Assembly (NCBI GenBank): GCA_050736695.1
Contig: JBOHWH010000030.1
Location: 584 to 64,583 of the forward strand
Source: Candidatus Binataceae bacterium
GTDB lineage: Bacteria; Desulfobacterota; Binatia; Binatales; Binataceae
Direction: 5' to 3'
DNA: 64,000 bases
Part shown: one piece after another, positions 18,129-43,138 of the stretch
Layout of the letters: every line of letters starts with the position of its first letter
Numbering within the stretch: position 1 is the stretch's first letter
Translations under genes and position numbers: made by a program
The notes under the pieces: model-generated
Seen by the model: the letters and a program-made list of their open reading frames with translations, nothing else
Database searches by the model: none
Told to the model about the DNA's origin: nothing

Positions 18129-19593
18129 TTGTCTGCCGTGCGGCTAGGATTGGGGGGTACCTCGGAGACGCGCGGGAGCCAGAGCGTCGGAATCGTTTAC
18201 ACCTCCGACGGCAGGGCGCAGACCCTTACGCTGCCCAACGGCGTCCGCATCGCGTACGGCTACGACGCGGACTCGCATCCGACCTCGATAAATTACAGCA
18301 GCACCGGCGCGGGCGCGCTCGGCGGCCTGACCTACGGCTACGACAATGACGGCAGGGTAAACAGCTTGGGCGGCTCACTCGCCAGCGTCAACCTGCCCGC
18401 CGCGATGACGGCGACTTATGACAACGGCAATCAGCTCGCGACCTGGAACGGGAACGCGGCGACGACCGACGGCAATGGTAATCTGCTCGCCGATCCGTCA
18501 ATCAGTTCGGCTTACACGTGGAACGAGCGCAACCAGCTCTCAACCGCGACGGTCGGCGCCATGCAAAGCAGCTACGTCTATGATGCGCTGGGGAGGCGCG
18601 CAGGGCAGACGAGCGCGGCGGTGACCACGCAATACGTCTTTGATATGCTTAATGTCGCGCAAGAGCAGTTCTCGACCGGAGGTGTTGGCGACATGCTGCC
18701 GGGACTCGGCCTCGACCGGTATTTCTCGCGGACCGATTCGTCGGGAACCTCTGCTATCCTGACCGACAAGCTCGGCTCTACATTGGGAATGGTGAACTCC
18801 TCCGGCTCGATCGGCACCGGATACCAGTACGGCCCTTTCGGACAAACGGCGAGCACCGGCTCATCGAGCACGAATCCTATTCAATACACGGGACGCGAGA
18901 TGGACCCGACTGGGCTCTACTTCCTGCGCGCACGTTACTACAATCCCGTTCTCCAGATGTTCATCTCTCCAGACCCCGCCGGCCTTTTGGGGGGGGCAGG
19001 TCAATCTCTATGCGTACGTCGGTAACATGCCCCTTAATTTCGTGGACCGCCTCGGACTCCAATACTCAGGTGGCGGCGGCGGAGGTGGTGACCCTCCGGG
19101 TCCGGGTACCTATGATGACGGCTGTAACGGCTGCGAAACCAATCCAGGGGGAAATCCTGGATCCCCCGGGGGCGGTGCTGGAGGTGGCCCGGGCGCCCCA
19201 GGAGGGGATCCGGTCGCGATTGGTTCGTTGCCAGCGGCGGGACAAATCAGCCCCGGATCAGTGCCTGGCATTACAATCGGCAACTTGTCTCAAGTTACCT
19301 CCGGATTTAGCGCCACATTAGGTAACGTTAATCTCGGGTATACCTTTGGCAAAGGATGGTCAGGCTCCGTTTTGGTAGGCGTAGCCATAGGGATTGGCTT
19401 TGAGTTTGGAATCAGCGATCCATATGCGGGTATGCCAATAGGCGGGATCGATATTGGATTTGGACACAATCTCGGCATTACAGTTGGCCTTTCGAGGAGC
19501 TACCTCACAGGCGGAACAGTCGTATCTTCCGTAACACTCGATACCGGCGCGTCCGCTGGGCTGCCTGTAGGATACGAGATACCGGTGTTTTAA
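18129..19593 (+). pseudogene. Orphan Rhs unit B (YD repeats, core and CT-B) interrupted by a +1 frameshift in a G8 tract
   Basis: The ORFs at 18129-19025 and 19027-19593 join into one reading frame if the G-run at 18989-18996 is 7 rather than 8 G. This restores DPAGLLGGQVNLYAYVGNMPLNFVDRLGL, which parallels tip A. Confidence 0.65.
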
Positions 19594-19607
19594 GAATCAG
19601 CGGGAGA

Positions 19608-19892
19608 TTGTCGGTGACTAAGCTGCTATTGAACATTCTATTCTGGAATTTCTTTACGCTAGCAGGGTGGCTACTCGTGATTGGTACGTATAAGAGATGG
19701 GAATGGCTGATCGATCCGCCTACTAAGTATTGGATGGTTTATTCGCAGTCCGCAATTAAACGAGTCTTCGGACGCCGTACAGTTGTTATTTTTACATATT
19801 CGTTGGCGGTAGCACTCATCGTAGTTGGTATGTTCAGCCTGATACAAATCGGGATCTCAGCTACGCATGTGCCTGGGACCAGATTGGGCTGA
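19608..19892 (+). CDS. Small 3-TM protein, candidate immunity protein for CT-B
   Basis: 94 aa, hydrophobic, starting 14 nt after the CT-B stop. Confidence 0.4.
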   Translation: MSVTKLLLNILFWNFFTLAGWLLVIGTYKRWEWLIDPPTKYWMVYSQSAIKRVFGRRTVVIFTYSLAVALIVVGMFSLIQIGISATHVPGTRLG

Positions 19893-20077
19893 CATGCGAA
19901 ATCCTTCGAACTTTGAGAGTTGCAAGGGAAGATCCAAGGTGTCTTTACTTGCAATCGGCGCCAACAATGCGAAAAGCCACCTTGCTGCTTCGCCGCGACG
20001 GCCGCCAGTGAACTGAGGAACCACTGCTGAGGGAAAGAGTTGTTCCGCCAAAACAATGGAAAAGAAATAGCGGCGCT

Positions 20078-20518
20078 GTGGGCTGTATTCGAGACGGCAG
20101 GACGCAGACTCTCACGCTGCCCAACGGCGTCAGCATCGCGTATGGCTACGACGCGGACTCGGATCCAACCTCGATAAACTACAGCAACACCGGCGCCGGA
20201 GCGCTCGGCGGCCTGACCTACGGTTACGACAACGACGGCAGGGTGAACAGCTTGGGCGGCTCACTCGCCAGCGTCAATCTGCCCGCCGCGATGACAGCGA
20301 CCTACGACACCGGCAATCAACTCGCGACCTGGAACGGGAACGCGGCGACGACCGATGGCAACGGCAACCTGCGTAGCGACCCGTCAGTGACCGGAACATA
20401 CACCTGGAACGAACGCAATCAACTATCAACCGCGACGGTCGGCGGCGTGCAAAGCAGCTTCCACTACGGTCAAATCCGCGACGCCGCCCAAATCGTCGCC
20501 GCGACCGCGAGTGAGTAG
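20078..20518 (+). pseudogene. Rhs YD-repeat fragment C fused to a duplicated ParB-like gene tail
   Basis: 20094-20459 parallels 18207-18572 of unit B (DGRxQTLTLPNG...ATVGxxQSS). The frame then runs into repeat copy 2 and ends HYGQIRDAAQIVAATASE, identical to the ParB-like protein C-terminus. Confidence 0.65.
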
Positions 20519-20623
20519 CGATCGCCGAATCGCGGCCCTGCGACGAAAGGCTCCTTCAGACGACGCGCGCCACGCCGGGGATGATGCGGATTGCCGCGCT
20601 TGATCCCCAACTGAGTAGCAGCA
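20460..20623. repeat. Direct repeat copy 2 (164 bp)
   Basis: It matches 16518-16681. It contains the genuine 3' end of the acyltransferase gene plus a duplicated ParB-like gene tail. Confidence 0.85.
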
Positions 20624-21806
20624 CGCCTGCGAAAACCAGCACTCCTTTCACAAATGCGGGTAGTGGCGCTTCGAGTATCGCCAACTGCAGCCATGAGACG
20701 AACATGTAGTGGATAATGTACATCCCATATTCGTTTTCGCTCAGACTGTCGTAAACCCATCGGCGGCGAGTGGCGAAACGGATGAATAACGCGAGAAATG
20801 CGAACGACAGCGCGGCGCACGTGATCGCCCAAATGCCGCCGCCCACCGCGCCGACGATGGCGGTCGAAGCCCTCAGATCGGGATGGGTTATTACGATGAA
20901 GAAGAAAACCACGCTCAGGAAGAACACAACCAGTCCGCCTGCAACCCATCGACCCCAGTGACGCGCTAGAATTCCGTCGGGCGCGAGCAGGCCGCGATCA
21001 ATTCCGTACGAGCCGACGCCGATCCCGGCAATGAAATAAACTGCGTAATGGAACAGGCGCGAAGTCTGAAACTGGAATGGCCCGATGCTGGTCCAGTACC
21101 CCGCGCTGTAAATCATAGCCATCGGGATATAGACCGCGACTGAGATCGCCGTGAGGAGCAGGAAGAAACGAACTGGATGCATTCGCGCATTGGACGTGAG
21201 CCGGCCGACTACATCGCCGAACTTCGGCATCATCGCGAATATCGCGGCCGCTACGATATCGAAGGCAAGCAGCAGCCAGATGAACCACGCCGGTCCCGTC
21301 GGCCAGTCGCCAAAAGACATCCACGCGTGAACGTAACCGGACAGCCCATGCTCTCCGGCCTGCAGGTAAGTGGGGTAGTAGGCGATTGGCGCGACCACCG
21401 CCGCGGCCACCAGGAATGGGAGGCCGAGCCGGATCATCCGATCGCGGACGAAGGTCGAGCCGCCCTTGCGCCGCAGACTCGACCATACGAACAGTCCCGA
21501 GACGAAGAACATCAGCGACATGAAGAAGTCGTCGTTGAAGCCGGTGAACAGGCTGAAGCCGACCCAATGCGCTTGTCGATCGATGACCGGGAATGCGCGC
21601 CACCATAGCGGCGGGACCCCAAACTGTTTTCCAATCGGCGGCGGCGACTCGACATAGGCAAGCACCGAATGATGCGCCAGAACCAGCACCACCAGAAAGC
21701 CGCGAAGATATCCGAGCGCAAGGTTGTGCGCCGGGCCGGATCCGGGTTCAGGTTTAGTTGATGCCGGCGTAAAGGAGGCGATCGCTTCCGGAATCGAGGC
21801 CATCAC
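20556..21806 (-). CDS. Acyltransferase family 3 membrane protein
   Basis: 416 aa with about 10 TM helices and an LRGFLVVLVLAHHS N-terminal motif. Confidence 0.85.
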   Translation of the reverse strand: MMASIPEAIASFTPASTKPEPGSGPAHNLALGYLRGFLVVLVLAHHSVLAYVESPPPIGKQFGVPPLWWRAFPVIDRQAHWVGFSLFTGFNDDFFMSLMFFVSGLFVWSSLRRKGGSTFVRDRMIRLGLPFLVAAAVVAPIAYYPTYLQAGEHGLSGYVHAWMSFGDWPTGPAWFIWLLLAFDIVAAAIFAMMPKFGDVVGRLTSNARMHPVRFFLLLTAISVAVYIPMAMIYSAGYWTSIGPFQFQTSRLFHYAVYFIAGIGVGSYGIDRGLLAPDGILARHWGRWVAGGLVVFFLSVVFFFIVITHPDLRASTAIVGAVGGGIWAITCAALSFAFLALFIRFATRRRWVYDSLSENEYGMYIIHYMFVSWLQLAILEAPLPAFVKGVLVFAGVLLLSWGSSAAIRIIPGVARVV

Positions 21807-37098: not shown

Positions 37099-37174
37099 TG
37101 AGGAGTGGCCAAACTGGCAAGGCACCTGACTCTGGATCAGGGGATTGAAGGTTCGAATCCTTCCTCCTCAGCCA
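37099..37174 (+). tRNA. tRNA-Gln (anticodon CUG)
   Basis: Hand-folded. Acceptor TGAGGAG/CTCCTCA, 3-bp D-stem GCC/GGC, anticodon stem CCTGA/TCAGG with loop CUCUGGA, T-arm GAAGG-TTCGAAT-CCTTC, discriminator G and an encoded CCA. Confidence 0.9.
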
Positions 37175-37212
37175 ACCCACCATCGCCAGCGCGGTGGGGC
37201 GCATCGACGGAC

Positions 37213-37287
37213 GGTCCCATCGTCTAGTGGTTAGGACACCGGCCTCTCACGTCGGGAACGCGGGTTCGACTCCCGCTGGGATCACCA
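37213..37287 (+). tRNA. tRNA-Glu (anticodon CUC)
   Basis: Hand-folded. Acceptor GGTCCCA/TGGGATC, D-arm GTCT-AGTGGTTA-GGAC, anticodon loop CUCUCAC, T-arm GCGGG-TTCGACT-CCCGC and an encoded CCA. Confidence 0.9.
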
Positions 37288-37566
37288 GAACAGATCAATC
37301 ACTCAACGGCTACGGCTTCGTCGCCCGTTTCTCCTGGTGCTAAACGGGTGCCATCTTTTGGGCTGAGTGTGCCAACGAAATCGATATCTCGATGGCTTTT
37401 ACCGAATTGCTGTTTGGTATAAGCTTCACACACACTTTCCGAGCCCAAATATTAAGGGCGACGTTTTTGTCGACTTCTACGGCTTCTGCAGCGTTCCGTA
37501 TGAGGGCCTTTGAAAAGGGATGGGTTCTGTCCTAAAATTCAGGTCGGCAGAGGCAGGAGGAAGGAA

Positions 37567-38226
37567 ATGATGGCATGCGAAATATGTAGCGATCTTTCCT
37601 CGAAGGAGCCCGCGTTTTGGAACGAGTCGCTCTTCGAATCGGCCAATTTTCGTGTACTGCCCTCGCTCGGGGCGCTGGTTGAAGGTTGGTTGCTCTTGTT
37701 GCCGAAGCAGCATGCAATTTCGATGGGCGCACTGGGCGATGACCTCATTGCGGAGATGCAACATGTTAAGAATCTGCTGGTCTCGACAATGGAGCGACCC
37801 TACTCGTCAGTTTGCGCATTCGAACACGGTCCAAGCAGGGCTAATTCCCTAGTAGGCTGTGGAGTCGATCATGCACACTTGCACATCGTCGCGTTAAAGT
37901 TCGATCTGTTTTCTGCTCTTCAGCCATTCTTGCCGGGAGATGTACTTTGGTCTTCAGCATCTTTTGTCGAATGCCAGGCCGCGCACCGCAGAGGCGATGA
38001 CTATTTGTATCTCGAACAACCGATCGGATTGGGACGCCTTGCTAGCCACCGTGAGTTTGGTAGTCAGTTGTTCAGGCGCGCGATCGCTGCAGAAATTGGA
38101 TTGCCTGATCAGTTCAGCTGGCGTGAACATCCACAGCTGCCAAACGTATCAGCAACCATTCAACAAGCCAGAAAATGGGCCGCTAACCTCGATCCGTTGG
38201 ACCAGTTCAAGCGAGTTGCGGCCTGA
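37567..38226 (+). CDS. HIT (histidine triad) family nucleotide hydrolase/transferase with C-terminal extension
   Basis: N-terminal CEIC, LLLLPKQH, and histidine triad VDHAHLHIV. The start is set at the ATG at 37567, preceded by AGGAGGAAGGAA. Confidence 0.7.
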   Translation: MMACEICSDLSSKEPAFWNESLFESANFRVLPSLGALVEGWLLLLPKQHAISMGALGDDLIAEMQHVKNLLVSTMERPYSSVCAFEHGPSRANSLVGCGVDHAHLHIVALKFDLFSALQPFLPGDVLWSSASFVECQAAHRRGDDYLYLEQPIGLGRLASHREFGSQLFRRAIAAEIGLPDQFSWREHPQLPNVSATIQQARKWAANLDPLDQFKRVAA

Positions 38227-38348
38227 AGAAAACGGAAATACCGGAGTCGGAACAGGTCCTTGGCTTCGCGCCCACCGACCTGACTGACAAACGAAATCCT
38301 CTCGACTGGAAGTCGAGGTACTCAGACCCCGTAGCTCGCCGGGGTATC

Positions 38349-38855
38349 TTGATCGAATCCGCATACTTGGGAGTTCTCCTCGCGGCTGCGCCTCTTTTGA
38401 TGTTAGCTCTGTGGCTTGATCTTCCGAACAAATGGATGGGTCTCAGTCAGCAGAAGTATGGTTCCGTCTTAAAGTATGGCTTGGCATGGCTAGGCGGGAC
38501 TCTCGGAGGGACCCTATTCGATCTCAAGTGGCTCTATCACTCCATAGCTAAACAGTGGTGGCATCTCGATCGACGGTTGTGGCGTTTCTTTACGCCACAC
38601 ATCTCGGGAGGACTGGCATTCGCGATGATAGCTCTGATTTCCTCGGGCTTGTTTCGGGTCTTCGACGCGACCGCAACCAAATCCTGTTCGGTCGTTGTAG
38701 CCGTGTCTTTTTTGGTAGGTTATTTCTCGGATAGCGCCATCGCTAAGTTTACCGAGATAGCCGACATTCTATTTGGTACGGTGAGCGGTAAGGGAAAAGG
38801 CCGCGAACAACCCAAACCGCTTAGCTCCGACGGCGCGGACATTTCGGAGCAATGA
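38349..38855 (+). CDS. 4-TM membrane protein (hypothetical)
   Basis: 168 aa with four hydrophobic helices and a charged tail (GKGKGREQPKPLSSDGADISEQ). It has a TTG start, so the true start is uncertain. Confidence 0.5.
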   Translation: MIESAYLGVLLAAAPLLMLALWLDLPNKWMGLSQQKYGSVLKYGLAWLGGTLGGTLFDLKWLYHSIAKQWWHLDRRLWRFFTPHISGGLAFAMIALISSGLFRVFDATATKSCSVVVAVSFLVGYFSDSAIAKFTEIADILFGTVSGKGKGREQPKPLSSDGADISEQ

Positions 38856-38965
38856 TGTGTCCCACTGTCACCACATCAGCGAGCTATCTTAAGTACCGAC
38901 TTAGGGGCCTTTAGTTGCGAAGGTAACGAGTTGACGCAATCGCTGATCAGAAGTGGATACGGTCC

Positions 38966-39796
38966 GTGAGAGGCGCTTCTCCTCTTCGCTACCCTGGAGG
39001 TAAGTGGAGAATTGCACCATTCCTCCGACGTGTTATCGAAATCAACCATCTCGACGATCCGATCTATATAGAACCCTATGCGGGAGGCGCCAGTCTGGCT
39101 CTTAGCCTGCTCTTCGACGGTCTCGTAGCCGAGATTCATCTCAACGATCTAGATTTCGCAGTTTACGCTTTCTGGCGGAGTGTGCTCACGAACACGCGCG
39201 AACTCTTGAAACTAATTAGCGAAGTATCTGTCACACCGGACGAGTGGTACAAACAAAAGGCCATCTACGCAGAAGGTACACGGTCGGGTACGCTAGCACT
39301 TGGATTCGCGAAGTTCTTCCTAAACCGCACAAGCCACTCCGGGATTCTCAATGGTGGGATGATCGGGGGTAAAGAGCAAATGGGAAAATGGAAGTTAGAC
39401 GCGCGGTTTAACCGGGCCGAATTGGCCCGACGTATATCGCGCATCTCCTCCGCTAAGAACCATATATTCATAACCAGCCGAGATGCTCTCGATGTTCTCA
39501 AAGATTGCCGCTCGTCGCGGAAGAGATTAGTCTATCTTGACCCCCCATACTACCGGCCGGGACGGCACTTGTATCTCAACGACTATAAGCCTAATGATCA
39601 CTTTGCAGTTAGAAAATGTGTCGAGAAGCTCGTCTGTCCTTGGATTGTATCTTATGACGACGTGAACGAAATCAGGAAACTATATAAAGGCGTACACTGT
39701 AAACATCTTGCACTCTTGCACACGGCTAGTCGCGCTCATCTAGGTGCCGAAATCCTCTACTTTTCACCTGAGCTTCGTATTCCGAAGTCGATCTGA
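38966..39796 (+). CDS. D12-class N6-adenine DNA methyltransferase (Dam-like)
   Basis: LRYPGGKW, YIEPYAGGASLAL (SAM motif I) and YLDPPY (motif IV). Confidence 0.85.
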   Translation: MRGASPLRYPGGKWRIAPFLRRVIEINHLDDPIYIEPYAGGASLALSLLFDGLVAEIHLNDLDFAVYAFWRSVLTNTRELLKLISEVSVTPDEWYKQKAIYAEGTRSGTLALGFAKFFLNRTSHSGILNGGMIGGKEQMGKWKLDARFNRAELARRISRISSAKNHIFITSRDALDVLKDCRSSRKRLVYLDPPYYRPGRHLYLNDYKPNDHFAVRKCVEKLVCPWIVSYDDVNEIRKLYKGVHCKHLALLHTASRAHLGAEILYFSPELRIPKSI

Positions 39797-39860
39797 CAGA
39801 GGCTCCCTCAACGGGTCATTCGCGGTCCTTAATAAGACTACTCTCTAACTAAAATAAACT

Positions 39861-42536
39861 GTGATTTCTAAAGAGCACAACAATGCTAAGCGGCATCCGC
39901 AGCGGCGTGGTCATCGCGCGCTAGCCCCGATTTGCTCTGTCCTTCGGCTATCGAGAGAAGGTCCCGCTCAGCTTGAACCTTCGGAGATTTCAGTAGAGCA
40001 GATAGGCTGGAAAGCATATGGCCTTTGTTGCCTACCGCAACGTTGGGTGCCGCGTTTCTTCGTAATCGCGGCTTCTTCAGTCCAAACGCAAGCAAGGGAT
40101 TCAGCCTTTGAGGCATGGTTAGGCGACTGTTTACGGAAATCGGGTCTATCGGCCGACAAGGAATTATATGTACGGTCCAGCGGAACTGAAGAGACGTTAG
40201 ATCAACGAGGCCGTTTGGATTCCACCCGGTGCGCGATCGAAGATGTGTCGGATGCAATCCGACACATGCTATCTAATCTGAAGCGAAGTGATGCAGAGCA
40301 GCTGCATTGGGTAATTCAAGGGGCTGTCACTCCAGTCCGAAAGGGACACCTTTCGAATGTCAGACGATTGAGTAACGAGGGACGTGACTGGGTCGTGGAG
40401 ATCGAACCCGAATCTGTTCAGCTTGGATATACCACACAAATCGCCGTCAGAAATTGGCGAGACGCTGGAAATAGGTCTAATGCGTTTTTGACGTGCAGCT
40501 CTGAGACAGAGATCAACATCTCTTTGAAGCGCGTCGCGATGTGGGCGACGCCCTTAGTTTCACGAATTCACTTCGAATGGGTATGGGATGGTCAAACCGT
40601 TAGGATCGTTCAGGCCGACGCCGAAGAACACCGTCGTGGAACCGCTCCCAAGTCACTTCTGCAAGTCAGAATACCCAAGATCCAGGTTGAAGTGCTGCAG
40701 GTATTCAGAATAGCGAACTCAAATGACTACGGTCGCTACAAGAAGCTACGCAACGCAAAGATCTACCGGAGTTTCGGCTACCAGATGCCTACGTTTTATG
40801 TACTCGACGATGCGGAGGTTCTGAAATCTATCCGAGGGGGAGTGTTGCCTTCTCTATGTCTCGCAGATTTGGAAGAGCTTACCAAACGTCCACTAGTAAT
40901 CCGCACTGATGGCGACGCGATTCCTGAAAACAAGCGGGAGATGTTGCCACGAAGTGAAGATCTGAGGTCTTCCGCGCAAGCAGGGAAGTGGCTCTTGGAA
41001 GACTTTAGCAGGAAACTTCAGCAGAACGACTTAGGGGCTTCGGGTATATGCTTGATCGCGCATCACTTCATCCCGTCGGTCGCTTCCGCATGGGCACGTG
41101 CAGAGCCCAGCAATCCCATCGTTAGAATAGAGGCGCTATGGGGTGTCCCTGAAGGTTTGTATTGGTTTTCGCACGACACATTCGAAATTGACACGAAGGA
41201 AGCTCGGATCGGCGGTCACAGACCGGCTCAATGGAAGCGATATACCTCTTGGGAGCGTTTACGATACAAAGGACTGTTCATAGCCTCCGATCAGACTGGC
41301 AAGTGGATTACACATTCTACAAAGCCTCCGTATGACTGGGCTAAGAGCATAACGCGGGAGCAATGGCTCTTCGAGATCGCTGAAACAACGAGGCGAATTG
41401 CGGAGGCCGAACGTTATCCGGTGAGTGTCATGTGGTTCGTGGACAATCATCGCGAGATGAGCGCACATCCTATCTTGCCTTGGTATCACATGAGATCAGA
41501 GTTGTCTGGAGTCCTTAAACCGGCGGCGCCTCGACACAAATATCGATCTATTGGCGACCAGAAAATCAGGACTAGCAAAGATTGGGCGGATTTTAAGGAC
41601 GCGCTCGCGAGTGGTAAAAGGACGGAGCGAGTCATCGTTGAACCGGTTGATCCTGAATTAATCAGAAATCCCGGTTTTGCTGAAGAGCTTGGGAAGCTCG
41701 CTTCCGAAAAGAGATTTGTAATCGAACTCGCTGGCGGAATCTTGTCGCATGCTTACTACATACTACGACGTCTGAATGCCGACGTGGAATGTGTTGATTT
41801 GTTTGGAATGGACGAGGACGTGGTCGAATACAATAAAATTGTGCGAGACAAGGTTCCAAAGCGAATCGAAAGCCGCGGTGAAAGGGTAGAGAGTATTCAG
41901 CTGAAAGGCGAAGCGTTGATGCTCGCCCTTAGGCGAAAACTAGTTGAAGAAGCGTACGAAGCATTGGACGCGAGATCTGGAGAAGATCTCGTCTCTGAAC
42001 TGGCGGACCTGCAAGAAGTCGTGCTGGCATTGCTCAAAGCCATGCATTCTTCGGTGTCAGTGCTTGACATTGAGCGCAAGGGAAAGCGCCGCCGCCGGGG
42101 CGGGTTTTCCCAGAGATTGATGCTTGTAAAAACCGCGACTTTGCACTCTCTTCGGAAAGAACAACTCTCCGGTAAGTCTCGCATGCTAGACTTAAAGACT
42201 CGTGGTCAACCTGCCGCAGTAATTTCGAACCCAAAAGAGCTTCCCAGGGATCAGCTATATCGTCGCCCCGATCTGCGGTACCTCGCAGACAACGAAGTGG
42301 AAAAGTTGATCACGTTCGAAGTGACGGCGAGCCAGCTCGAAGAGAGTGGCCGCCAAACCTATCGGTTCCAAATGCCACTTGGCGAAGTCACAGCAAAGGA
42401 ATTTGAGCTCAGTGTGCAGCTCATCAGAGAAAGGTCCAGGATTCGCGGAGTCATCTCATTGCGTTCCGATCTTACGCGTTCTGAATCTAGCGATGTGGAA
42501 GCCCGGCAATTGAAACTGAAGTTGCCTGAATCCTAG
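39861..42536 (+). CDS. Multidomain protein: two PPDK_N-like ATP-grasp modules, PEP-utilizer phosphohistidine swivel domain, MazG/HisE-like NTP pyrophosphohydrolase and an unknown C-terminal domain
   Basis: Module 1 (aa 45-255): GWKAYGLCCLPQRWVPRFFVI, YVRSSGTEE, IHFEWVWDGQTVRIVQAD. Module 2 (aa 285-530): LVIRTDGD, VRIEALWGVPEGL, PVSVMWFVD. Swivel domain: VIVEPVDPEL..FVIELAGGILSHAYYILRRL (His630, nt 41748-41750). NTP-PPase: NKIVRDKVPKRIE..LVEEAYEAL..ELADLQEV..RRGGF. Confidence 0.65.
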   Translation: MISKEHNNAKRHPQRRGHRALAPICSVLRLSREGPAQLEPSEISVEQIGWKAYGLCCLPQRWVPRFFVIAASSVQTQARDSAFEAWLGDCLRKSGLSADKELYVRSSGTEETLDQRGRLDSTRCAIEDVSDAIRHMLSNLKRSDAEQLHWVIQGAVTPVRKGHLSNVRRLSNEGRDWVVEIEPESVQLGYTTQIAVRNWRDAGNRSNAFLTCSSETEINISLKRVAMWATPLVSRIHFEWVWDGQTVRIVQADAEEHRRGTAPKSLLQVRIPKIQVEVLQVFRIANSNDYGRYKKLRNAKIYRSFGYQMPTFYVLDDAEVLKSIRGGVLPSLCLADLEELTKRPLVIRTDGDAIPENKREMLPRSEDLRSSAQAGKWLLEDFSRKLQQNDLGASGICLIAHHFIPSVASAWARAEPSNPIVRIEALWGVPEGLYWFSHDTFEIDTKEARIGGHRPAQWKRYTSWERLRYKGLFIASDQTGKWITHSTKPPYDWAKSITREQWLFEIAETTRRIAEAERYPVSVMWFVDNHREMSAHPILPWYHMRSELSGVLKPAAPRHKYRSIGDQKIRTSKDWADFKDALASGKRTERVIVEPVDPELIRNPGFAEELGKLASEKRFVIELAGGILSHAYYILRRLNADVECVDLFGMDEDVVEYNKIVRDKVPKRIESRGERVESIQLKGEALMLALRRKLVEEAYEALDARSGEDLVSELADLQEVVLALLKAMHSSVSVLDIERKGKRRRRGGFSQRLMLVKTATLHSLRKEQLSGKSRMLDLKTRGQPAAVISNPKELPRDQLYRRPDLRYLADNEVEKLITFEVTASQLEESGRQTYRFQMPLGEVTAKEFELSVQLIRERSRIRGVISLRSDLTRSESSDVEARQLKLKLPES

Positions 42537-42615
42537 TAAAGGCGCTCTCGCAACTTGAGCTGCTTTCGGTGAATATAAGAAGTCTGGCTACTGCCCCTTC
42601 GGGTGGCTGAGCGCA

Positions 42616-42819
42616 TTGCGCATCCTGCGGGAAGGAACCCTCAACACTTATGCCCGCGTTGGATGTTTTTTGATCGCATTCGCGATGCTCGTTGTTCTTG
42701 CCGGCCGCGAGTACACTTCTTTTTTCAAGAACGCGCTGCCCACCTATCTGGTTCCGCTCTGCGCCTTCTTCGCGGGTTTGATTCTCGCCCGTCAACGGCG
42801 CCCGGCAATCGCAGGTTGA
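42616..42819 (+). CDS. Possible small 2-TM protein
   Basis: 67 aa with two hydrophobic stretches (VGCFLIAFAMLVVLA, LVPLCAFFAGLILA). There is no homology support, so it could be non-coding. Confidence 0.25.
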   Translation: MRILREGTLNTYARVGCFLIAFAMLVVLAGREYTSFFKNALPTYLVPLCAFFAGLILARQRRPAIAG

Positions 42820-42880
42820 AGGCTCCATTTGCTCGGTATGCGTTGGACGCGCGTTCGCGCCACGCAACGAACCGCACTGG

Positions 42881-43138
42881 CTAAGGCTTCGAGGTCGTCT
42901 GGGCGGTCGCCAGTAGAATGATCTCCTCGTGCGCGACGGTGCCGGCGGCGTAGGCCATCGCGGCATGGATATCTTCCCATTTCAGGCGGCGATATGCGTC
43001 AAGCTTTCGGTTTCTGTGGCTCGCTTAGCTTGCGCAGGAGTCAGCTCGACCGTGATTCGTGTGCCCTTGATCACGGGCTTGACGATCATCACCTCGGCGT
43101 TGATTTCGATCCTGTCAGTCGTCGCAAGAGGCCCTCAT
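42881..43138 (-). pseudogene. Degraded DUF433 (antitoxin-like) gene
   Basis: The reverse strand reads DRIEINAEVMIVKPVIKGTRITVEL, then LLRKLSE, then KLDAYRRLKWEDIHAAMAYAAGTVAHEEII in three different frames. That implies two frameshifts and an early stop after the putative ATG. Confidence 0.6.

What the first reader, a model, noticed from the sequence alone, without database searches (positions are those of the whole stretch)
37288..42900. tRNA-adjacent low-GC cassette (HIT, 4-TM protein, Dam-type MTase, 891-aa dikinase/MazG fusion): candidate undescribed nucleotide-centred defence or DNA-modification system
Four genes follow directly after tRNA-Gln and tRNA-Glu. They share the + strand and have short gaps (122, 110 and 64 nt), which is consistent with one operon. 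GC is clearly lower than in the flanks: 28/60 in line 40681-40740 against 46/60 in an smc line. The four encoded proteins are listed below.
- A histidine-triad nucleotide hydrolase/transferase (VDHAHLHIV).
- A 4-TM protein with no soluble domain.
- A D12-class m6A DNA methyltransferase (DPPY) with no recognisable endonuclease partner.
- A very large enzyme combining two PPDK_N-like ATP-grasp modules, a phosphohistidine swivel domain and an all-alpha NTP pyrophosphohydrolase.
A self-marking methylase, nucleotide-processing enzymes and a membrane protein next to a tRNA hot spot follow the general logic of anti-phage islands. I cannot match this gene set to any named defence system I know. The distal edge carries a decayed DUF433 antitoxin-like gene, another accessory-region hallmark. 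The functional interpretation is inference; only the domains and the layout are observed.
Basis: partly seen in the sequence, partly recalled or inferred. Interest (0 to 1): 0.85.

Follow-up and report, generated by a model that had tools for sequence, protein, structure and literature searches.

The report
Mobile methylase–HIT–membrane–dikinase/MazG gene cassette
Next to two tRNA genes sits a 5-kb, horizontally transferred four-gene operon (DNA methylase, HIT nucleotide hydrolase, small membrane protein, large ATP-driven phosphotransfer/NTP-pyrophosphatase enzyme) that recurs as a unit in bacteria of at least a dozen phyla, matches no described system, and is most likely a new methylation-linked defence system against phages or plasmids.

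Summary
Four + strand genes follow tRNA-Gln and tRNA-Glu in a low-GC stretch (about 0.51 against 0.62 in the flanks).

The decisive result is synteny:
- Of 63 genome loci with room upstream of an 891-aa homologue, 60 carry the HIT and membrane genes. 58 also carry a D12 DNA methylase.
- In the reverse test, 42 of 44 loci seeded from the HIT gene carry the large gene.
- The methylase changes position and even family: PD-lambda-5_B-type D12, other D12, an SPPY N6_N4 type and a 618-aa class I type. HIT, membrane protein and large enzyme stay contiguous.
- Nucleotide similarity to other genomes covers only 37504-42545, so the cassette moves as a unit.

Domain calls are partly confirmed:
- HIT is confirmed by profile searches.
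- The methylase is solid.
- The large protein has a rifampin-phosphotransferase/PPDK-type ATP-grasp fold (Foldseek E 2.5e-7), an invariant GGxxSH motif and invariant MazG acidic residues. All Pfam hits are below threshold.

PADLOC, NCBIfam and the literature searches give no match for the HIT, membrane or large proteins. A defence role is circumstantial: mobility, tRNA sites, about 17 of 144 nearest neighbours being known defence proteins, and five loci beside a complete PD-lambda-5. The mechanism is unknown.

The parts
37099..37287 (+). tRNA-Gln (CTG) and tRNA-Glu (CTC). These are the insertion-site context and not part of the cassette.
   Evidence: ARAGORN. About 10 of 55 homologous loci also lie within about 1.5 kb of a tRNA gene, with different tRNAs in different loci.
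37504..42545 (+). The horizontally shared unit: the promoter region plus four genes.
   Evidence: blastn against L001, L077 (78.6%) and L002 (81-86%) covers only 37504/37508-42537/42545. No flank is shared. GC is 0.49-0.53 here against 0.62 in the flanks.
37510..37538 (+). Promoter-like site TTGAAA-17-TAAAAT, followed by AGGAGG ahead of ATG 37567.
   Evidence: Consensus scan, 10 of 12 positions matched. The number of sites in the region is not above that of shuffles, so this is only a lead.
37567..38226 (+). Gene A: HIT-superfamily protein of 219 aa. It has CxxC near the N-terminus, FEHG, the DHAHLH triad and a C-terminal extension of about 100 aa (EYLF, SQFFRR).
   Evidence: A profile of 30 homologues hits PDB HIT proteins at E 6.7e-6 to 9.9e-6. 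Pfam HIT matches 26 of 30 members, best 7.8e-6, while the window protein itself is sub-threshold. H104 and H106 are invariant and H102 is conserved in at least 90%.
38223..38855 (+). Gene B: small membrane protein with 3-4 TM segments. It is 210 aa if the CTG at 38223 is the start, or 168 aa from TTG 38349. Conserved features are an N-terminal D-x-T-D-x-R...W-x-S-x-Y segment, W-H-x-D-R-R-x-W-R and G-Y-F-x-D.
   Evidence: Hydropathy profile, alignment of 36 homologues and the in-frame conserved extension with the CTGA overlap. It has no Pfam or PDB relative.
38966..39796 (+). Gene C: D12-class N6-adenine DNA methyltransferase of 276 aa, with EPYAGG and DPPY motifs.
   Evidence: Pfam MethyltransfD12 at 1.1e-18. 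PADLOC PD-Lambda-5_B at 1e-106 and MTase_II at 6e-93. PDB 7m6b adenine MTase at 4e-15.
39861..42536 (+). Gene D: 891-aa multidomain enzyme.
   Evidence: There are 593 homologues among the candidates scored, mostly of about 890 aa. The family has 678 cluster representatives at 50% identity with E<=1e-30. Sources name it only 'NTP pyrophosphohydrolase / MazG superfamily'.
39918..41510 (+). D residues about 20-550: dikinase-type ATP-grasp region, apparently two modules (about 20-270 and 275-550).
   Evidence: Foldseek hits rifampin phosphotransferase 5hv2/5hv6 at E 2.5e-7 and HpeI 9goj at 9e-7. Weak colinear hhalign matches: D418-545 to PpsA 216-340, module 1 to the PPDK_N region of the L060 paralogue at E 0.004, and module 1 against module 2 at E 0.0067. 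Pfam PPDK_N matches only 4 of 30 members, best 0.0018.
41538..41825 (+). D residues about 560-655: small alpha/beta domain carrying GGILSH630AYYILRR. It is a candidate phosphohistidine carrier; the H630 codon is at 41748-41750.
   Evidence: H630 is invariant. hhalign places H630 on the catalytic H421 of E. coli PpsA, but the whole alignment scores only E 0.048. The model has pLDDT 75-96 here. There is no Pfam PEP-utilizers hit and no Foldseek hit.
41838..42155 (+). D residues about 660-765: all-alpha MazG/PRA-PH-like NTP pyrophosphohydrolase domain.
   Evidence: E696, E697, E700, D703, E713, D716 and E719 are invariant. Pfam PRA-PH matches 15 of 30 members, best 7.8e-4, and reaches the gathering score in the Caulobacter homologue. 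Foldseek gives 1y6x at probability 0.95 and 26% identity, plus 7bgn, 1yxb and 5ie9, but with E>=0.2.
42243..42485 (+). D residues about 795-875: five-stranded beta domain of unknown kind. This is the part of D that diverges most between clades.
   Evidence: The model has pLDDT 72-86 here and no PDB fold match. tblastn matches to distant clades end near residue 760-775.
42882..43115 (-). Frameshifted DUF433 (antitoxin-like) remnant at the distal flank. It lies outside the shared unit.
   Evidence: Two minus-strand frames, joined, hit PF04255 at 1.3e-9.

Best explanation
Window positions 37504-42545 carry a self-contained, horizontally mobile four-gene operon. It is one member of a large, undescribed family of methylase-linked systems.

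Shown:
- A HIT-superfamily protein (A), a small membrane protein (B) and an 891-aa enzyme (D) always travel together. A DNA methyltransferase (C) nearly always travels with them.
- D combines a dikinase-type ATP-grasp region, an invariant His on a GGxxSH motif and a MazG-like pyrophosphohydrolase.
- The unit sits in varying genomic contexts, often beside tRNA genes, mobile-element genes or known defence genes.

Inferred (most likely reading): it is an anti-phage or anti-plasmid system built like DISARM or BREX.
- C puts a methyl mark on host DNA as the 'self' label.
- A-B-D is the effector side, and it acts on nucleotides rather than cutting DNA.
- D binds ATP in its ATP-grasp region and transfers phosphate (or pyrophosphate) through His630 to an acceptor held near the MazG domain. 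The MazG domain cleaves (d)NTPs to (d)NMP plus PPi. The net effect is either a signal or toxic nucleotide, or depletion of ATP and dNTPs.
- A, acting through its His triad, hydrolyses or transfers the nucleotidyl product. This would be a reset or self-immunity step.
- B tethers the machinery to the membrane or executes the response.

How the methyl mark is read is not known.
For: Conserved unit:
- 60 of 63 D-seeded loci have A and B, and 58 also have a D12 MTase. Gene orders are C-A-B-D in 23 loci, A-B-C-D in 20, A-B-D-C(minus strand) in 9 and others in 8.
- 42 of 44 A-seeded metagenome loci have D.
- Independent gene calls show 4-nt overlaps for A/B and B/C.
- The 72 loci come from more than a dozen phyla. 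The family has 678 representatives at 50% identity with E<=1e-30.

A methylase is needed, but not one particular methylase:
- An SPPY-type N6_N4_Mtase replaces C in L013, L131 and L133.
- A distant D12 lineage, convergent on D, replaces C in the Burkholderia, Candidimonas and Azoarcus clade.
- A 618-aa class I MTase takes that place on a Caulobacter plasmid that has the same MTase-A-B-D layout.

Mobility:
- Nucleotide identity to other genomes stops at the cassette edges.
- GC drops within the cassette.
- A tRNA gene lies within about 1.5 kb in roughly 10 of 55 loci.
- Integrases, transposases, resolvases and conjugation genes are among the neighbours, and there is no fifth conserved gene.

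Defence context:
- Five loci have a complete PD-lambda-5 system (an A-like gene plus the C-type MTase) abutting A-B-D. PD-lambda-5 is an experimentally validated anti-phage system (PMC9519451).
- The other nearest neighbours include KwaB, MzaA, DrmC, DrmD, SduA, BilD, PbeA, type IV REases and PDC candidates.
- One locus sits between an MmeI-type RM system, a PLD-SNF2 protein and deaminase toxin genes.

Enzymology:
- Foldseek matches D to rifampin phosphotransferase and HpeI ATP-grasp domains at E 2.5e-7.
- H630 aligns with the catalytic His of PpsA.
- The MazG acidic residues are invariant.
- The HIT profile hits PDB HIT proteins.
- In a Desulfovibrio locus, a paralogous protein fuses a PPDK_N domain (Pfam 4.7e-15), a GVLSH motif and an A-family HIT domain (hhalign probability 90.7%). 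This ties the dikinase and HIT chemistries together.
Against: - There is no experimental evidence of any phenotype.
- No nuclease, helicase or other classical effector, and no reader of methylated DNA, was recognised in A, B or D.
- Many loci, including this window, sit between housekeeping genes rather than in defence islands.
- The neighbour enrichment has no formal control.
- D was not found in phage records or in IMG/VR.
- Two loci (L142, L153) have intact A-B-D with no MTase in the available DNA. That is awkward for a strict restriction-like logic.
- The His-domain and two-module assignments rest on weak alignments (E 0.005-0.05).
- The roles assigned to A and B are guesses.
Confidence: 0.5

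Rival explanations
1. Methylome-derived nucleotide sensing (abortive infection). C barcodes the host chromosome. When a phage degrades host DNA, methylated mononucleotides appear. D and A bind or process them, for example D re-phosphorylates the methylated dNMP and its MazG domain cleaves it again. That would be a futile cycle that burns ATP, or that depletes dNTPs. B or the nucleotide depletion then stops the infected cell.
For: - A precedent exists. The PUA-Cal-HAD system is triggered by Dam-derived m6-dAMP and depletes dNTPs. In some relatives a MazG-like domain replaces the calcineurin-like effector, and these systems are often linked to N6-adenine MTases (preprint 10.64898/2026.01.15.699771).
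- All three non-MTase proteins here are nucleotide-directed or membrane proteins, with no DNA-cutting domain.
- A-B-D tolerates MTases of different sequence families and positions.
- A-B-D can sit beside another system's MTase, the PD-lambda-5 one.
- Two loci have A-B-D without any adjacent MTase.
Against: - The replacement MTase in L013, L131 and L133 carries SPPY, the motif typical of N4-cytosine enzymes. Yet their D proteins, about 50% identical, are not unusually divergent. A fixed m6-dAMP read-out is therefore not supported.
- No PUA, EVE, ASCH or YTH-like reader fold was found in the C-terminal model of D.
- The futile-cycle chemistry is pure inference.
Confidence: 0.2
2. The cassette is not immunity but a selfish or housekeeping accessory of a mobile methylase. 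One version is an addiction module, in which loss of the methylase lets A-B-D kill the cell, as post-segregational killing does for RM systems. The other version is a 'sanitation' set that removes methylated nucleotides (MazG and HIT hydrolysis, with B as exporter) so that they are not re-incorporated.
For: - The cassette is tightly linked and mobile, and it carries its own promoter-like site.
- MazG and HIT families are classical house-cleaning hydrolases. This is established knowledge of those families and was not tested here.
- Many loci lie among housekeeping genes.
Against: - Sanitation does not explain a 550-residue ATP-grasp/His phosphotransfer region whose polar residues are invariant.
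- Sanitation also does not explain the conserved membrane protein.
- The association with known defence genes and with PD-lambda-5 fits conflict better than housekeeping.
- An addiction role is not exclusive of defence.
Confidence: 0.15
3. Small-molecule resistance or modification cassette. D phosphorylates and inactivates an antibiotic-like compound, as rifampin phosphotransferase does. A detoxifies a nucleotide antibiotic and B exports it. The methylase would be incidental.
For: - The best fold matches of D are rifampin phosphotransferase and the hydroxyacetophenone dikinase subunit HpeI.
- HIT hydrolases are known to give immunity to peptide-nucleotide antibiotics. This is prior knowledge and was not tested here.
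Against: - The partner that is conserved, through changes of family and position, is a DNA methyltransferase. That has no place in a drug-resistance cassette.
- D has a MazG domain in place of a drug-binding domain.
- No biosynthetic or efflux-pump genes are conserved nearby.
Confidence: 0.05

Closest known systems
PD-lambda-5 (Vassallo et al. 2022, PMC9519451)
   Same: The window's methylase belongs to the PD-Lambda-5_B family (PADLOC E 1e-106). In five homologous loci a PD-Lambda-5_A-like gene sits in an operon with that methylase directly beside A-B-D.
   Different: PD-lambda-5 is a two-gene system. Its A component was seen here as proteins of about 420-480 aa with a ParB-like ENPR/DGNRR N-terminus. 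That component is absent from the window, and no PADLOC model matches A, B or D.
DISARM and BREX (methylation-associated multi-gene defence)
   Same: The logic is the same: a DNA methylase plus several non-REase proteins move as one mobile unit. In DISARM a conserved core is paired with non-homologous methylases (class 1 adenine, class 2 cytosine; prior knowledge). Here A-B-D is likewise paired with D12, SPPY-type and other MTases. BREX also contains phosphotransfer or phosphatase-family enzymes of unknown role (PglZ, PglW; prior knowledge).
   Different: None of the defining proteins is present (DrmA, DrmB, DrmC; BrxC, PglZ, PglX, BrxL). PADLOC found no hit at E<=1. There is no helicase, ATPase or protease. 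The effector side here is HIT plus a membrane protein plus the dikinase/MazG enzyme.
PUA-Cal-HAD system (preprint 10.64898/2026.01.15.699771)
   Same: It links an adenine methylome to nucleotide-level immunity. Some of its relatives use MazG-like effectors that deplete dNTPs, and it is frequently linked to N6-adenine MTases.
   Different: The window has no PUA-like, calcineurin-like or HAD domain. Some variants of the cassette carry an SPPY (cytosine-N4-type) methylase.
PEP synthase / PPDK / rifampin phosphotransferase dikinases
   Same: D has the dikinase-type ATP-grasp fold (Foldseek E 2.5e-7). It has the GxK..L and VRSSG..E motifs, and a GGxxSH motif that aligns with the catalytic His of PpsA.
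   Different: D has no PEP/pyruvate TIM-barrel and no rifampin-binding domain. The ATP-grasp-like region appears duplicated. The His domain is reduced and is followed by MazG and an unknown beta domain. Pfam PPDK_N and PEP-utilizers do not reach threshold.
MazG / PRA-PH all-alpha NTP pyrophosphohydrolases and HIT (Hint-branch) hydrolases
   Same: The MazG metal-binding acidic residues are invariant, and the domain folds like PRA-PH or MazG. A has the CxxC...HxHxH pattern and gives profile hits to HIT structures.
   Different: Both are embedded in a new architecture. MazG is one internal domain of an 891-aa protein. The HIT protein has FEHG and an unknown C-terminal extension of about 100 aa. 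Both are sub-threshold to Pfam for the window's own proteins.

Membership tests
PD-lambda-5 | PD-Lambda-5_B methyltransferase is present. | tested here: met
   PADLOC PDLC04018 at E 1e-106, covering residues 3-274 of 276.
PD-lambda-5 | PD-Lambda-5_A partner gene lies adjacent. | tested here: not met
   No PADLOC hit for A, B or D at E<=1. A-like genes occur only in 5 homologous loci.
Type II restriction-modification | A cognate restriction endonuclease lies next to the methylase. | tested here: not met
   No REase model (PADLOC) and no nuclease family (Pfam) matches A, B or D. Neither model gave a nuclease fold match.
BREX / DISARM | Core proteins are present (BrxC, PglZ and PglX; or DrmA, DrmB and DrmC). 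| tested here: not met
   PADLOC found no hit at E<=1 for A, B or D. C matches only MTase_II, PD-Lambda-5_B and orphan MTase models.
PUA-Cal-HAD | A PUA-like sensor, a calcineurin-like (or MazG) effector and a HAD phosphatase are present. | tested here: not met
   No PUA, metallophosphatase or HAD hits in Pfam. No PUA-like fold in the C-terminal model of D. Only a MazG-like domain is shared.
PEP-utilising dikinases (PPDK_N plus PEP-utilizers) | PPDK_N-type ATP-grasp nucleotide-binding domain. | tested here: met
   Met at fold level. Foldseek gives 5hv2, 5hv6 and 9goj at E 2.5e-7 to 9e-7 with probability 1.0. At sequence level, Pfam PPDK_N matches only 4 of 30 members, best 0.0018, below the gathering score.
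PEP-utilising dikinases (PPDK_N plus PEP-utilizers) | Mobile phosphohistidine domain with the catalytic His. | tested here: inconclusive
   GGILSH630 is invariant and aligns with PpsA H421, but the hhalign E-value is only 0.048. There is no Pfam PEP-utilizers hit and no Foldseek match for this domain. Phosphorylation of H630 cannot be tested with these tools.
PEP-utilising dikinases (PPDK_N plus PEP-utilizers) | C-terminal PEP/pyruvate (TIM barrel) or drug-binding acceptor domain. | tested here: not met
   The His domain is followed by a MazG-like helical domain and a small beta domain.
MazG / all-alpha NTP pyrophosphohydrolase | Four-helix core with EExxE...D and E..D..E metal-binding residues. 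| tested here: met
   E696, E697, E700, D703, E713, D716 and E719 are invariant. Helices span 683-746. Foldseek gives 1y6x at probability 0.95 and 26% identity, though with E 0.22. Pfam PRA-PH matches 15 of 30 members and is sub-threshold for the window protein.
HIT superfamily | HxHxHxx histidine triad on a Hint-like fold. | tested here: met
   The DHAHLHIV motif has H104 and H106 invariant. The profile hits PDB HIT proteins at E 6.7e-6, aligned from the N-terminal CxxC to the triad. Pfam HIT matches 26 of 30 members. The window protein alone scores 14.8 bits against a cutoff of 21.5.
D12-class N6-adenine DNA methyltransferase | SAM-binding motif and DPPY catalytic motif, with a family profile match above threshold. 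| tested here: met
   PF02086 at 68.4 bits against a cutoff of 22. EPYAGG and DPPY are conserved. PDB 7m6b at 4e-15. Methylation activity and target motif cannot be tested here.

The most novel reading that the evidence does not exclude
A-B-D plus a methylase would be a new class of epigenetically gated immunity. Its effector would be a phosphohistidine dikinase fused to a MazG domain. On infection it would make a modified or hyper-phosphorylated nucleotide, or burn ATP and dNTPs in a futile phosphorylation-hydrolysis cycle. A dedicated HIT enzyme would act as reset or immunity factor, and a membrane protein as anchor or executioner. No dikinase of the PEP-synthase or rifampin-phosphotransferase type has so far been implicated in phage defence.
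Probability: 0.3. Interest if true: 0.85.

Novelty: new variant of a known kind. Interest (0 to 1): 0.72.

Why it matters
If this is a defence system, it adds a widespread family. The family has hundreds of clusters at 50% identity and spans Acidobacteriota, Nitrospirota, Pseudomonadota, Patescibacteria, Bacteroidota and other phyla. Its effector chemistry is not represented among known systems: ATP-grasp/phosphohistidine transfer combined with MazG and HIT.

It is also a clean case for asking how a methyl mark can gate immunity without a nuclease. That question is still open for BREX and DISARM.

The family includes cultured carriers (Paraburkholderia, Achromobacter, Burkholderia cenocepacia, Nitrosomonas ureae, Acinetobacter, and a Caulobacter plasmid), so it can be tested directly.

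Two practical points follow:
- PADLOC-type tools would see only an orphan PD-lambda-5 methylase here.
- One database gene call truncates D to 713 aa.

Tried and rejected
1. Sequence searches of D against PDB, with the single protein and with a 30-sequence profile, gave nothing useful. Only the fold search did.
2. hhalign of the D family against E. coli PpsA, against the L060 paralogue, and of module 1 against module 2 gave colinear but statistically weak matches, E 0.004-0.05. I treat these as supporting evidence only.
3. Foldseek of the better C-terminal model (pLDDT 83) found no significant match. The beta domain and the His domain therefore remain unassigned at fold level.
4. att-like direct repeats flanking the island (37303, 37470, 42874): the 12-nt core is not more frequent than in shuffles, 13 against 6.8 +/- 2.6. 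Rejected as evidence.
5. A shared insertion site with Methylomirabilis oxyfera, which also has DUF433 and MsrA near its cassette: only generic MsrA similarity of 51% and no DUF433 match. This is coincidence.
6. Viral origin: there was no relative in IMG/VR with the patterns used, nor in 50,697 phage records.
7. A strict m6-dAMP read-out: weakened by the SPPY-type methylases in three loci.
8. A fifth conserved gene: clustering of 919 neighbouring ORFs found none.
9. B as a bestrophin-like channel: only one sub-threshold hit among 36 members. Rejected.
10. Frameshifted copies in several long-read MAGs (L042, L058, L062, L064, L066, L069) were not interpreted as decay, because sequencing error cannot be excluded.

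Full report
**1. What is in the window**

ARAGORN finds tRNA-Gln (37099-37174) and tRNA-Glu (37213-37287) on the + strand. Four + strand ORFs follow:
- A: 37510-38226
- B: 38349-38855
- C: 38966-39796
- D: 39861-42536, 891 aa

GC is 0.49-0.53 from about 37250 to 42750 and about 0.62 on both sides. The flanks are ordinary genes. Upstream are an RNase Y-like gene and the tRNAs. Downstream are MsrA, an enoyl-CoA hydratase and an oxidoreductase. The frameshifted DUF433 remnant at about 42882-43115 (-) is real, with PF04255 at E 1.3e-9 on the joined frames.

I make two corrections.
- A most likely starts at ATG 37567, giving 219 aa. This start follows AGGAGG and a promoter-like TTGAAA-17-TAAAAT. 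The promoter scan is not above chance.
- B is probably longer than listed. A 42-codon stretch upstream of the listed TTG start is in frame and encodes GFAPTDLTDKRNPLDWKSRYSDP, which is conserved in nearly all B homologues. It contains no ATG, GTG or TTG. A CTG at 38223 overlaps the TGA of A as CTGA, the same 4-nt overlap that independent gene calls show for A/B and B/C in other genomes. L002 has the same arrangement.

**2. Domains**

C is a solid D12-class adenine DNA methyltransferase:
- PF02086 at 1.1e-18
- PADLOC PD-Lambda-5_B at 1e-106 and MTase_II at 6e-93
- PDB 7m6b at 4e-15, with DPPY present

A alone is sub-threshold to Pfam HIT (E 0.045-0.052). Family-level evidence is better. A 30-sequence profile hits four PDB HIT proteins at 7e-6 to 1e-5, aligned from the N-terminal CxxC to the HxHxH triad. 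Pfam HIT matches 26 of 30 family members. A also carries an unassigned C-terminal extension of about 100 aa.

B has 3-4 hydrophobic segments and no relative in Pfam or PDB.

D has no significant Pfam, NCBIfam, PADLOC or PDB sequence match. The evidence for its domains is as follows.
- *ATP-grasp.* An AlphaFold model (pLDDT 68.5) matches the ATP-grasp domain of rifampin phosphotransferase at E 2.5e-7 and HpeI at 9e-7. Generic ATP-grasp enzymes follow, and PPDK is at rank 43.
- *Alignment with PpsA.* hhalign against E. coli PpsA is weak (E 0.048) but colinear. D418-545 falls on the C-terminal half of PPDK_N. GGILSH630AYYILRR falls on GGRTCH421AAIIAR, which contains the catalytic histidine.
- *Two modules.* Module 1 (about 20-270) carries GWKAYGL and VRSSGTEET motifs and ends in FEWVWDG..IVQAD. 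Module 2 (about 275-550) repeats this pattern. The internal and cross alignments are only E 0.004-0.02, so 'two PPDK_N-like modules' is plausible but not proven.
- *MazG.* E696, E697, E700, D703, E713, D716 and E719 are invariant. Pfam PRA-PH matches 15 of 30 members, best 7.8e-4, and reaches the gathering score in the Caulobacter homologue. A second model of residues 560-891 (pLDDT 83) resembles PRA-PH and MazG structures, with 1y6x at probability 0.95 and 26% identity, although E is 0.22.
- *C-terminus.* The last 100 or so residues form a five-stranded beta domain with no match. This is the part that diverges most between clades.

**3. The decisive evidence: synteny**

A scan of one genome per species with the D alignment returned 72 loci. 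They come from Acidobacteriota, beta-, gamma- and 'delta'-proteobacteria, Nitrospirota, Patescibacteria, Bacillota, Bacteroidota, Ignavibacteriota, Verrucomicrobiota, Campylobacterota, Planctomycetota, Dormibacterota, Vulcanimicrobiota and Methylomirabilota. Several are cultured strains.

I ran phmmer with the four window proteins against all six-frame ORFs. Of 63 loci with room upstream of D, 60 have A and B immediately upstream on the same strand. Of these, 58 also have a D12 methylase within 10 kb. The gene orders are:

| Order | Loci |
|---|---|
| C-A-B-D | 23 |
| A-B-C-D | 20 |
| A-B-D-C (minus strand) | 9 |
| A-B-D-C | 3 |
| C (minus strand)-A-B-D | 3 |
| A-B-D only | 2 |

In the reverse direction, 80 metagenome loci were seeded from A. 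Of the 44 with enough downstream DNA, 42 have D.

The methylase can be replaced:
- L013, L131 and L133 have a 367-aa N6_N4_Mtase with an SPPY motif upstream of A.
- The Burkholderia, Candidimonas and Azoarcus clade uses a distant D12 lineage that is convergent on D.
- A Caulobacter plasmid has [618-aa class I MTase]-[213 aa]-[189 aa]-[815-aa D homologue at 24% identity].

Clustering of 919 neighbouring ORFs found no further conserved partner. The D family has 678 representatives at 50% identity with E<=1e-30.

**4. Mobility and context**

blastn of the window against all loci finds 79-86% identity to L001, L077 and L002 over 37504/37508-42537/42545 only, and nothing in the flanks. The four genes and their upstream region therefore move as one 5.04-kb unit. 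About 10 of 55 loci lie within about 1.5 kb of a tRNA gene, with different tRNAs in different loci. Neighbours include tyrosine integrases, resolvases, DDE and IS21 transposases and conjugation genes.

Defence neighbours:
- Five loci (L027, L028, L031, L059, L071) have a PD-Lambda-5_A-like gene, up to E 4e-166 and with a ParB-like N-terminus. In four of them it is in an operon with the C-type methylase; in L031 an intervening ORF separates the two. The result is a complete PD-lambda-5 directly beside A-B-D. PD-lambda-5 is an experimentally validated, broad anti-phage system described as a compacted RM+Abi system (PMC9519451).
- Among 139 further nearest neighbours, all within about 1.8 kb and from 64 loci, PADLOC finds KwaB, MzaA, DrmC, DrmD, SduA, BilD, PbeA, type IV REases, PDC-S02, PDC-S32 and extra MTases.
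- One locus lies between an MmeI-type RM system, a PLD-SNF2 protein, an HTH-M78 regulator and a deaminase toxin.
- Other loci, like the window itself, sit among housekeeping genes.

Roughly 17 of 144 nearest neighbours are known defence proteins. That is well above the 1-2% expected for a bacterial genome, but I had no matched control.

**5. A fusion that links two of the chemistries**

In a Desulfovibrio locus (L060), the gene upstream of D encodes a 763-aa protein with three parts:
- a significant Pfam PPDK_N domain (4.7e-15)
- a GVLSHPAMVLR motif like that of D
- a C-terminal domain of the A family, including its extension (hhalign probability 90.7%, E 1.2e-6)

This Rosetta-stone fusion argues that the HIT protein works directly with a dikinase module.

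**6. Mechanism**

*Shown.* The unit is conserved, mobile and linked to a methylase. D has a dikinase-type ATP-grasp fold, an invariant candidate phosphohistidine and conserved MazG catalytic residues. A has an intact histidine triad.

*Inferred.* Dikinases of this family move the beta-phosphate of ATP through a histidine to an acceptor, as PEP synthase, PPDK, rifampin phosphotransferase and HpeHI do. In D the acceptor domain is replaced by a nucleotide-binding MazG domain. I therefore expect the acceptor or product to be a nucleotide. The alternative is that the enzyme simply consumes ATP and (d)NTPs. A would hydrolyse or transfer the nucleotidyl product. B would anchor the machinery or execute the response.

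The constant requirement for a DNA methylase, of whatever family, suggests self-marking as in DISARM, whose core pairs with either adenine or cytosine methylases, or as in BREX. A rival model is read-out of methylated nucleotides released from degraded host DNA, as shown for PUA-Cal-HAD (preprint 10.64898/2026.01.15.699771). That model fits the nucleotide-centred enzymes and the two MTase-less loci. It is weakened by the SPPY (N4-cytosine-type) methylases, which are paired with otherwise ordinary A-B-D, and by the absence of a PUA-like reader. Non-defence readings (addiction module, methyl-nucleotide sanitation, drug resistance) are less likely but not excluded.

**7. Comparison and novelty**

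The cassette fails the membership tests for PD-lambda-5 (no A component), type II RM (no REase), BREX, DISARM and PUA-Cal-HAD. No PADLOC 2.0.0 or NCBIfam 20.0 model matches A, B or D. Eight full-text searches found no description. DefensePredictor mentions MazG and MazG-C candidates only in general terms.

I classify it as a new variant of a known kind: a methylation-associated multi-gene defence system with an effector set that has no precedent. The defence role itself is unproven; I put it at about 0.5 for the DISARM/BREX-like model and about 0.7 for any immune or conflict role.

**8. Verdict**

The finding is worth experimental follow-up, and cultured carriers are available.

Noticed in passing
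window 38223-38349: The conserved N-terminal 42 aa of B are in frame but lack an ATG, GTG or TTG. A CTG overlaps the stop of A as CTGA, which suggests a non-canonical, translationally coupled start. L002 (81-86% identical DNA) has the same arrangement.
   Followed up: partly
window 39861-42536 (database protein P0001): The protein database holds the window's D gene as a 713-aa product (80% coverage, 100% identity), that is, called from an internal start. Homologues of about 890 aa show that the 891-aa reading is the right one.
   Followed up: yes
L060:6885-9176 (Desulfovibrio sp. MAG, JAQYWK010000002.1): A 763-aa paralogue fuses PPDK_N (Pfam 4.7e-15), a GVLSH motif and an A-family HIT domain. 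A 223-aa ORF and a D homologue follow it. Its HIT part is weakly nearest to Ap4A phosphorylase (PDB 3ano, E 0.11).
   Followed up: partly
L027, L028, L031, L059, L071: Complete PD-lambda-5-like pairs (a ParB-like A protein of about 420-480 aa plus the C-type methylase) sit directly beside A-B-D. In Duganella (L059), D is cut short at about residue 485, and IS21-like genes follow it.
   Followed up: partly
L110:1218-3390: An A-family HIT gene occurs without B or D. It is followed instead by a phosphoribosyltransferase-like gene and RNA 3'-phosphate cyclase RtcA.
   Followed up: no
L162 (Parabacteroides distasonis plasmid NZ_OY725790.1, 156377-161663) and L161 (Lactococcus lactis pUC06C, 18318-21025): Distant A-like HIT genes (26-27% identity) lie in other small clusters. 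One is ThyX-like / 670-aa ATP-binding protein / HIT / hypothetical / DHFR. The other is class V aminotransferase / HIT / hypothetical. These may be other nucleotide-modification or conflict modules.
   Followed up: no
window 42616-42819 (+): A 67-aa ORF with two hydrophobic segments lies just after D, outside the shared unit. It has only sub-threshold Pfam hits. M. oxyfera also has a small gene (58 aa) after D, but no similarity between the two was tested.
   Followed up: no
window 37303-37319, 37470-37486, 42874-42890: An imperfect 17-nt direct repeat brackets the low-GC stretch (76-82% identity). Its 12-nt core is not more frequent in the window than in shuffles, so it is not evidence of an att site.
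   Followed up: yes
P0143 and about 25 other representatives (950-1024 aa): A subfamily of D matches the profile only to about residue 735 and has a different, longer C-terminus. The only PDB hint is a LigD phosphoesterase-domain match at E 0.22, which is not significant.
   Followed up: partly
L074 (Methylomirabilis oxyfera FP565575.1, 367665-390310): A complete A-B-C-D cassette lies in a finished genome. ORF6N and HTH genes are upstream, and a DUF433-PIN toxin-antitoxin pair and tRNA-Ala are downstream. The window also has a DUF433 remnant, but the sequences are not detectably related.
   Followed up: yes
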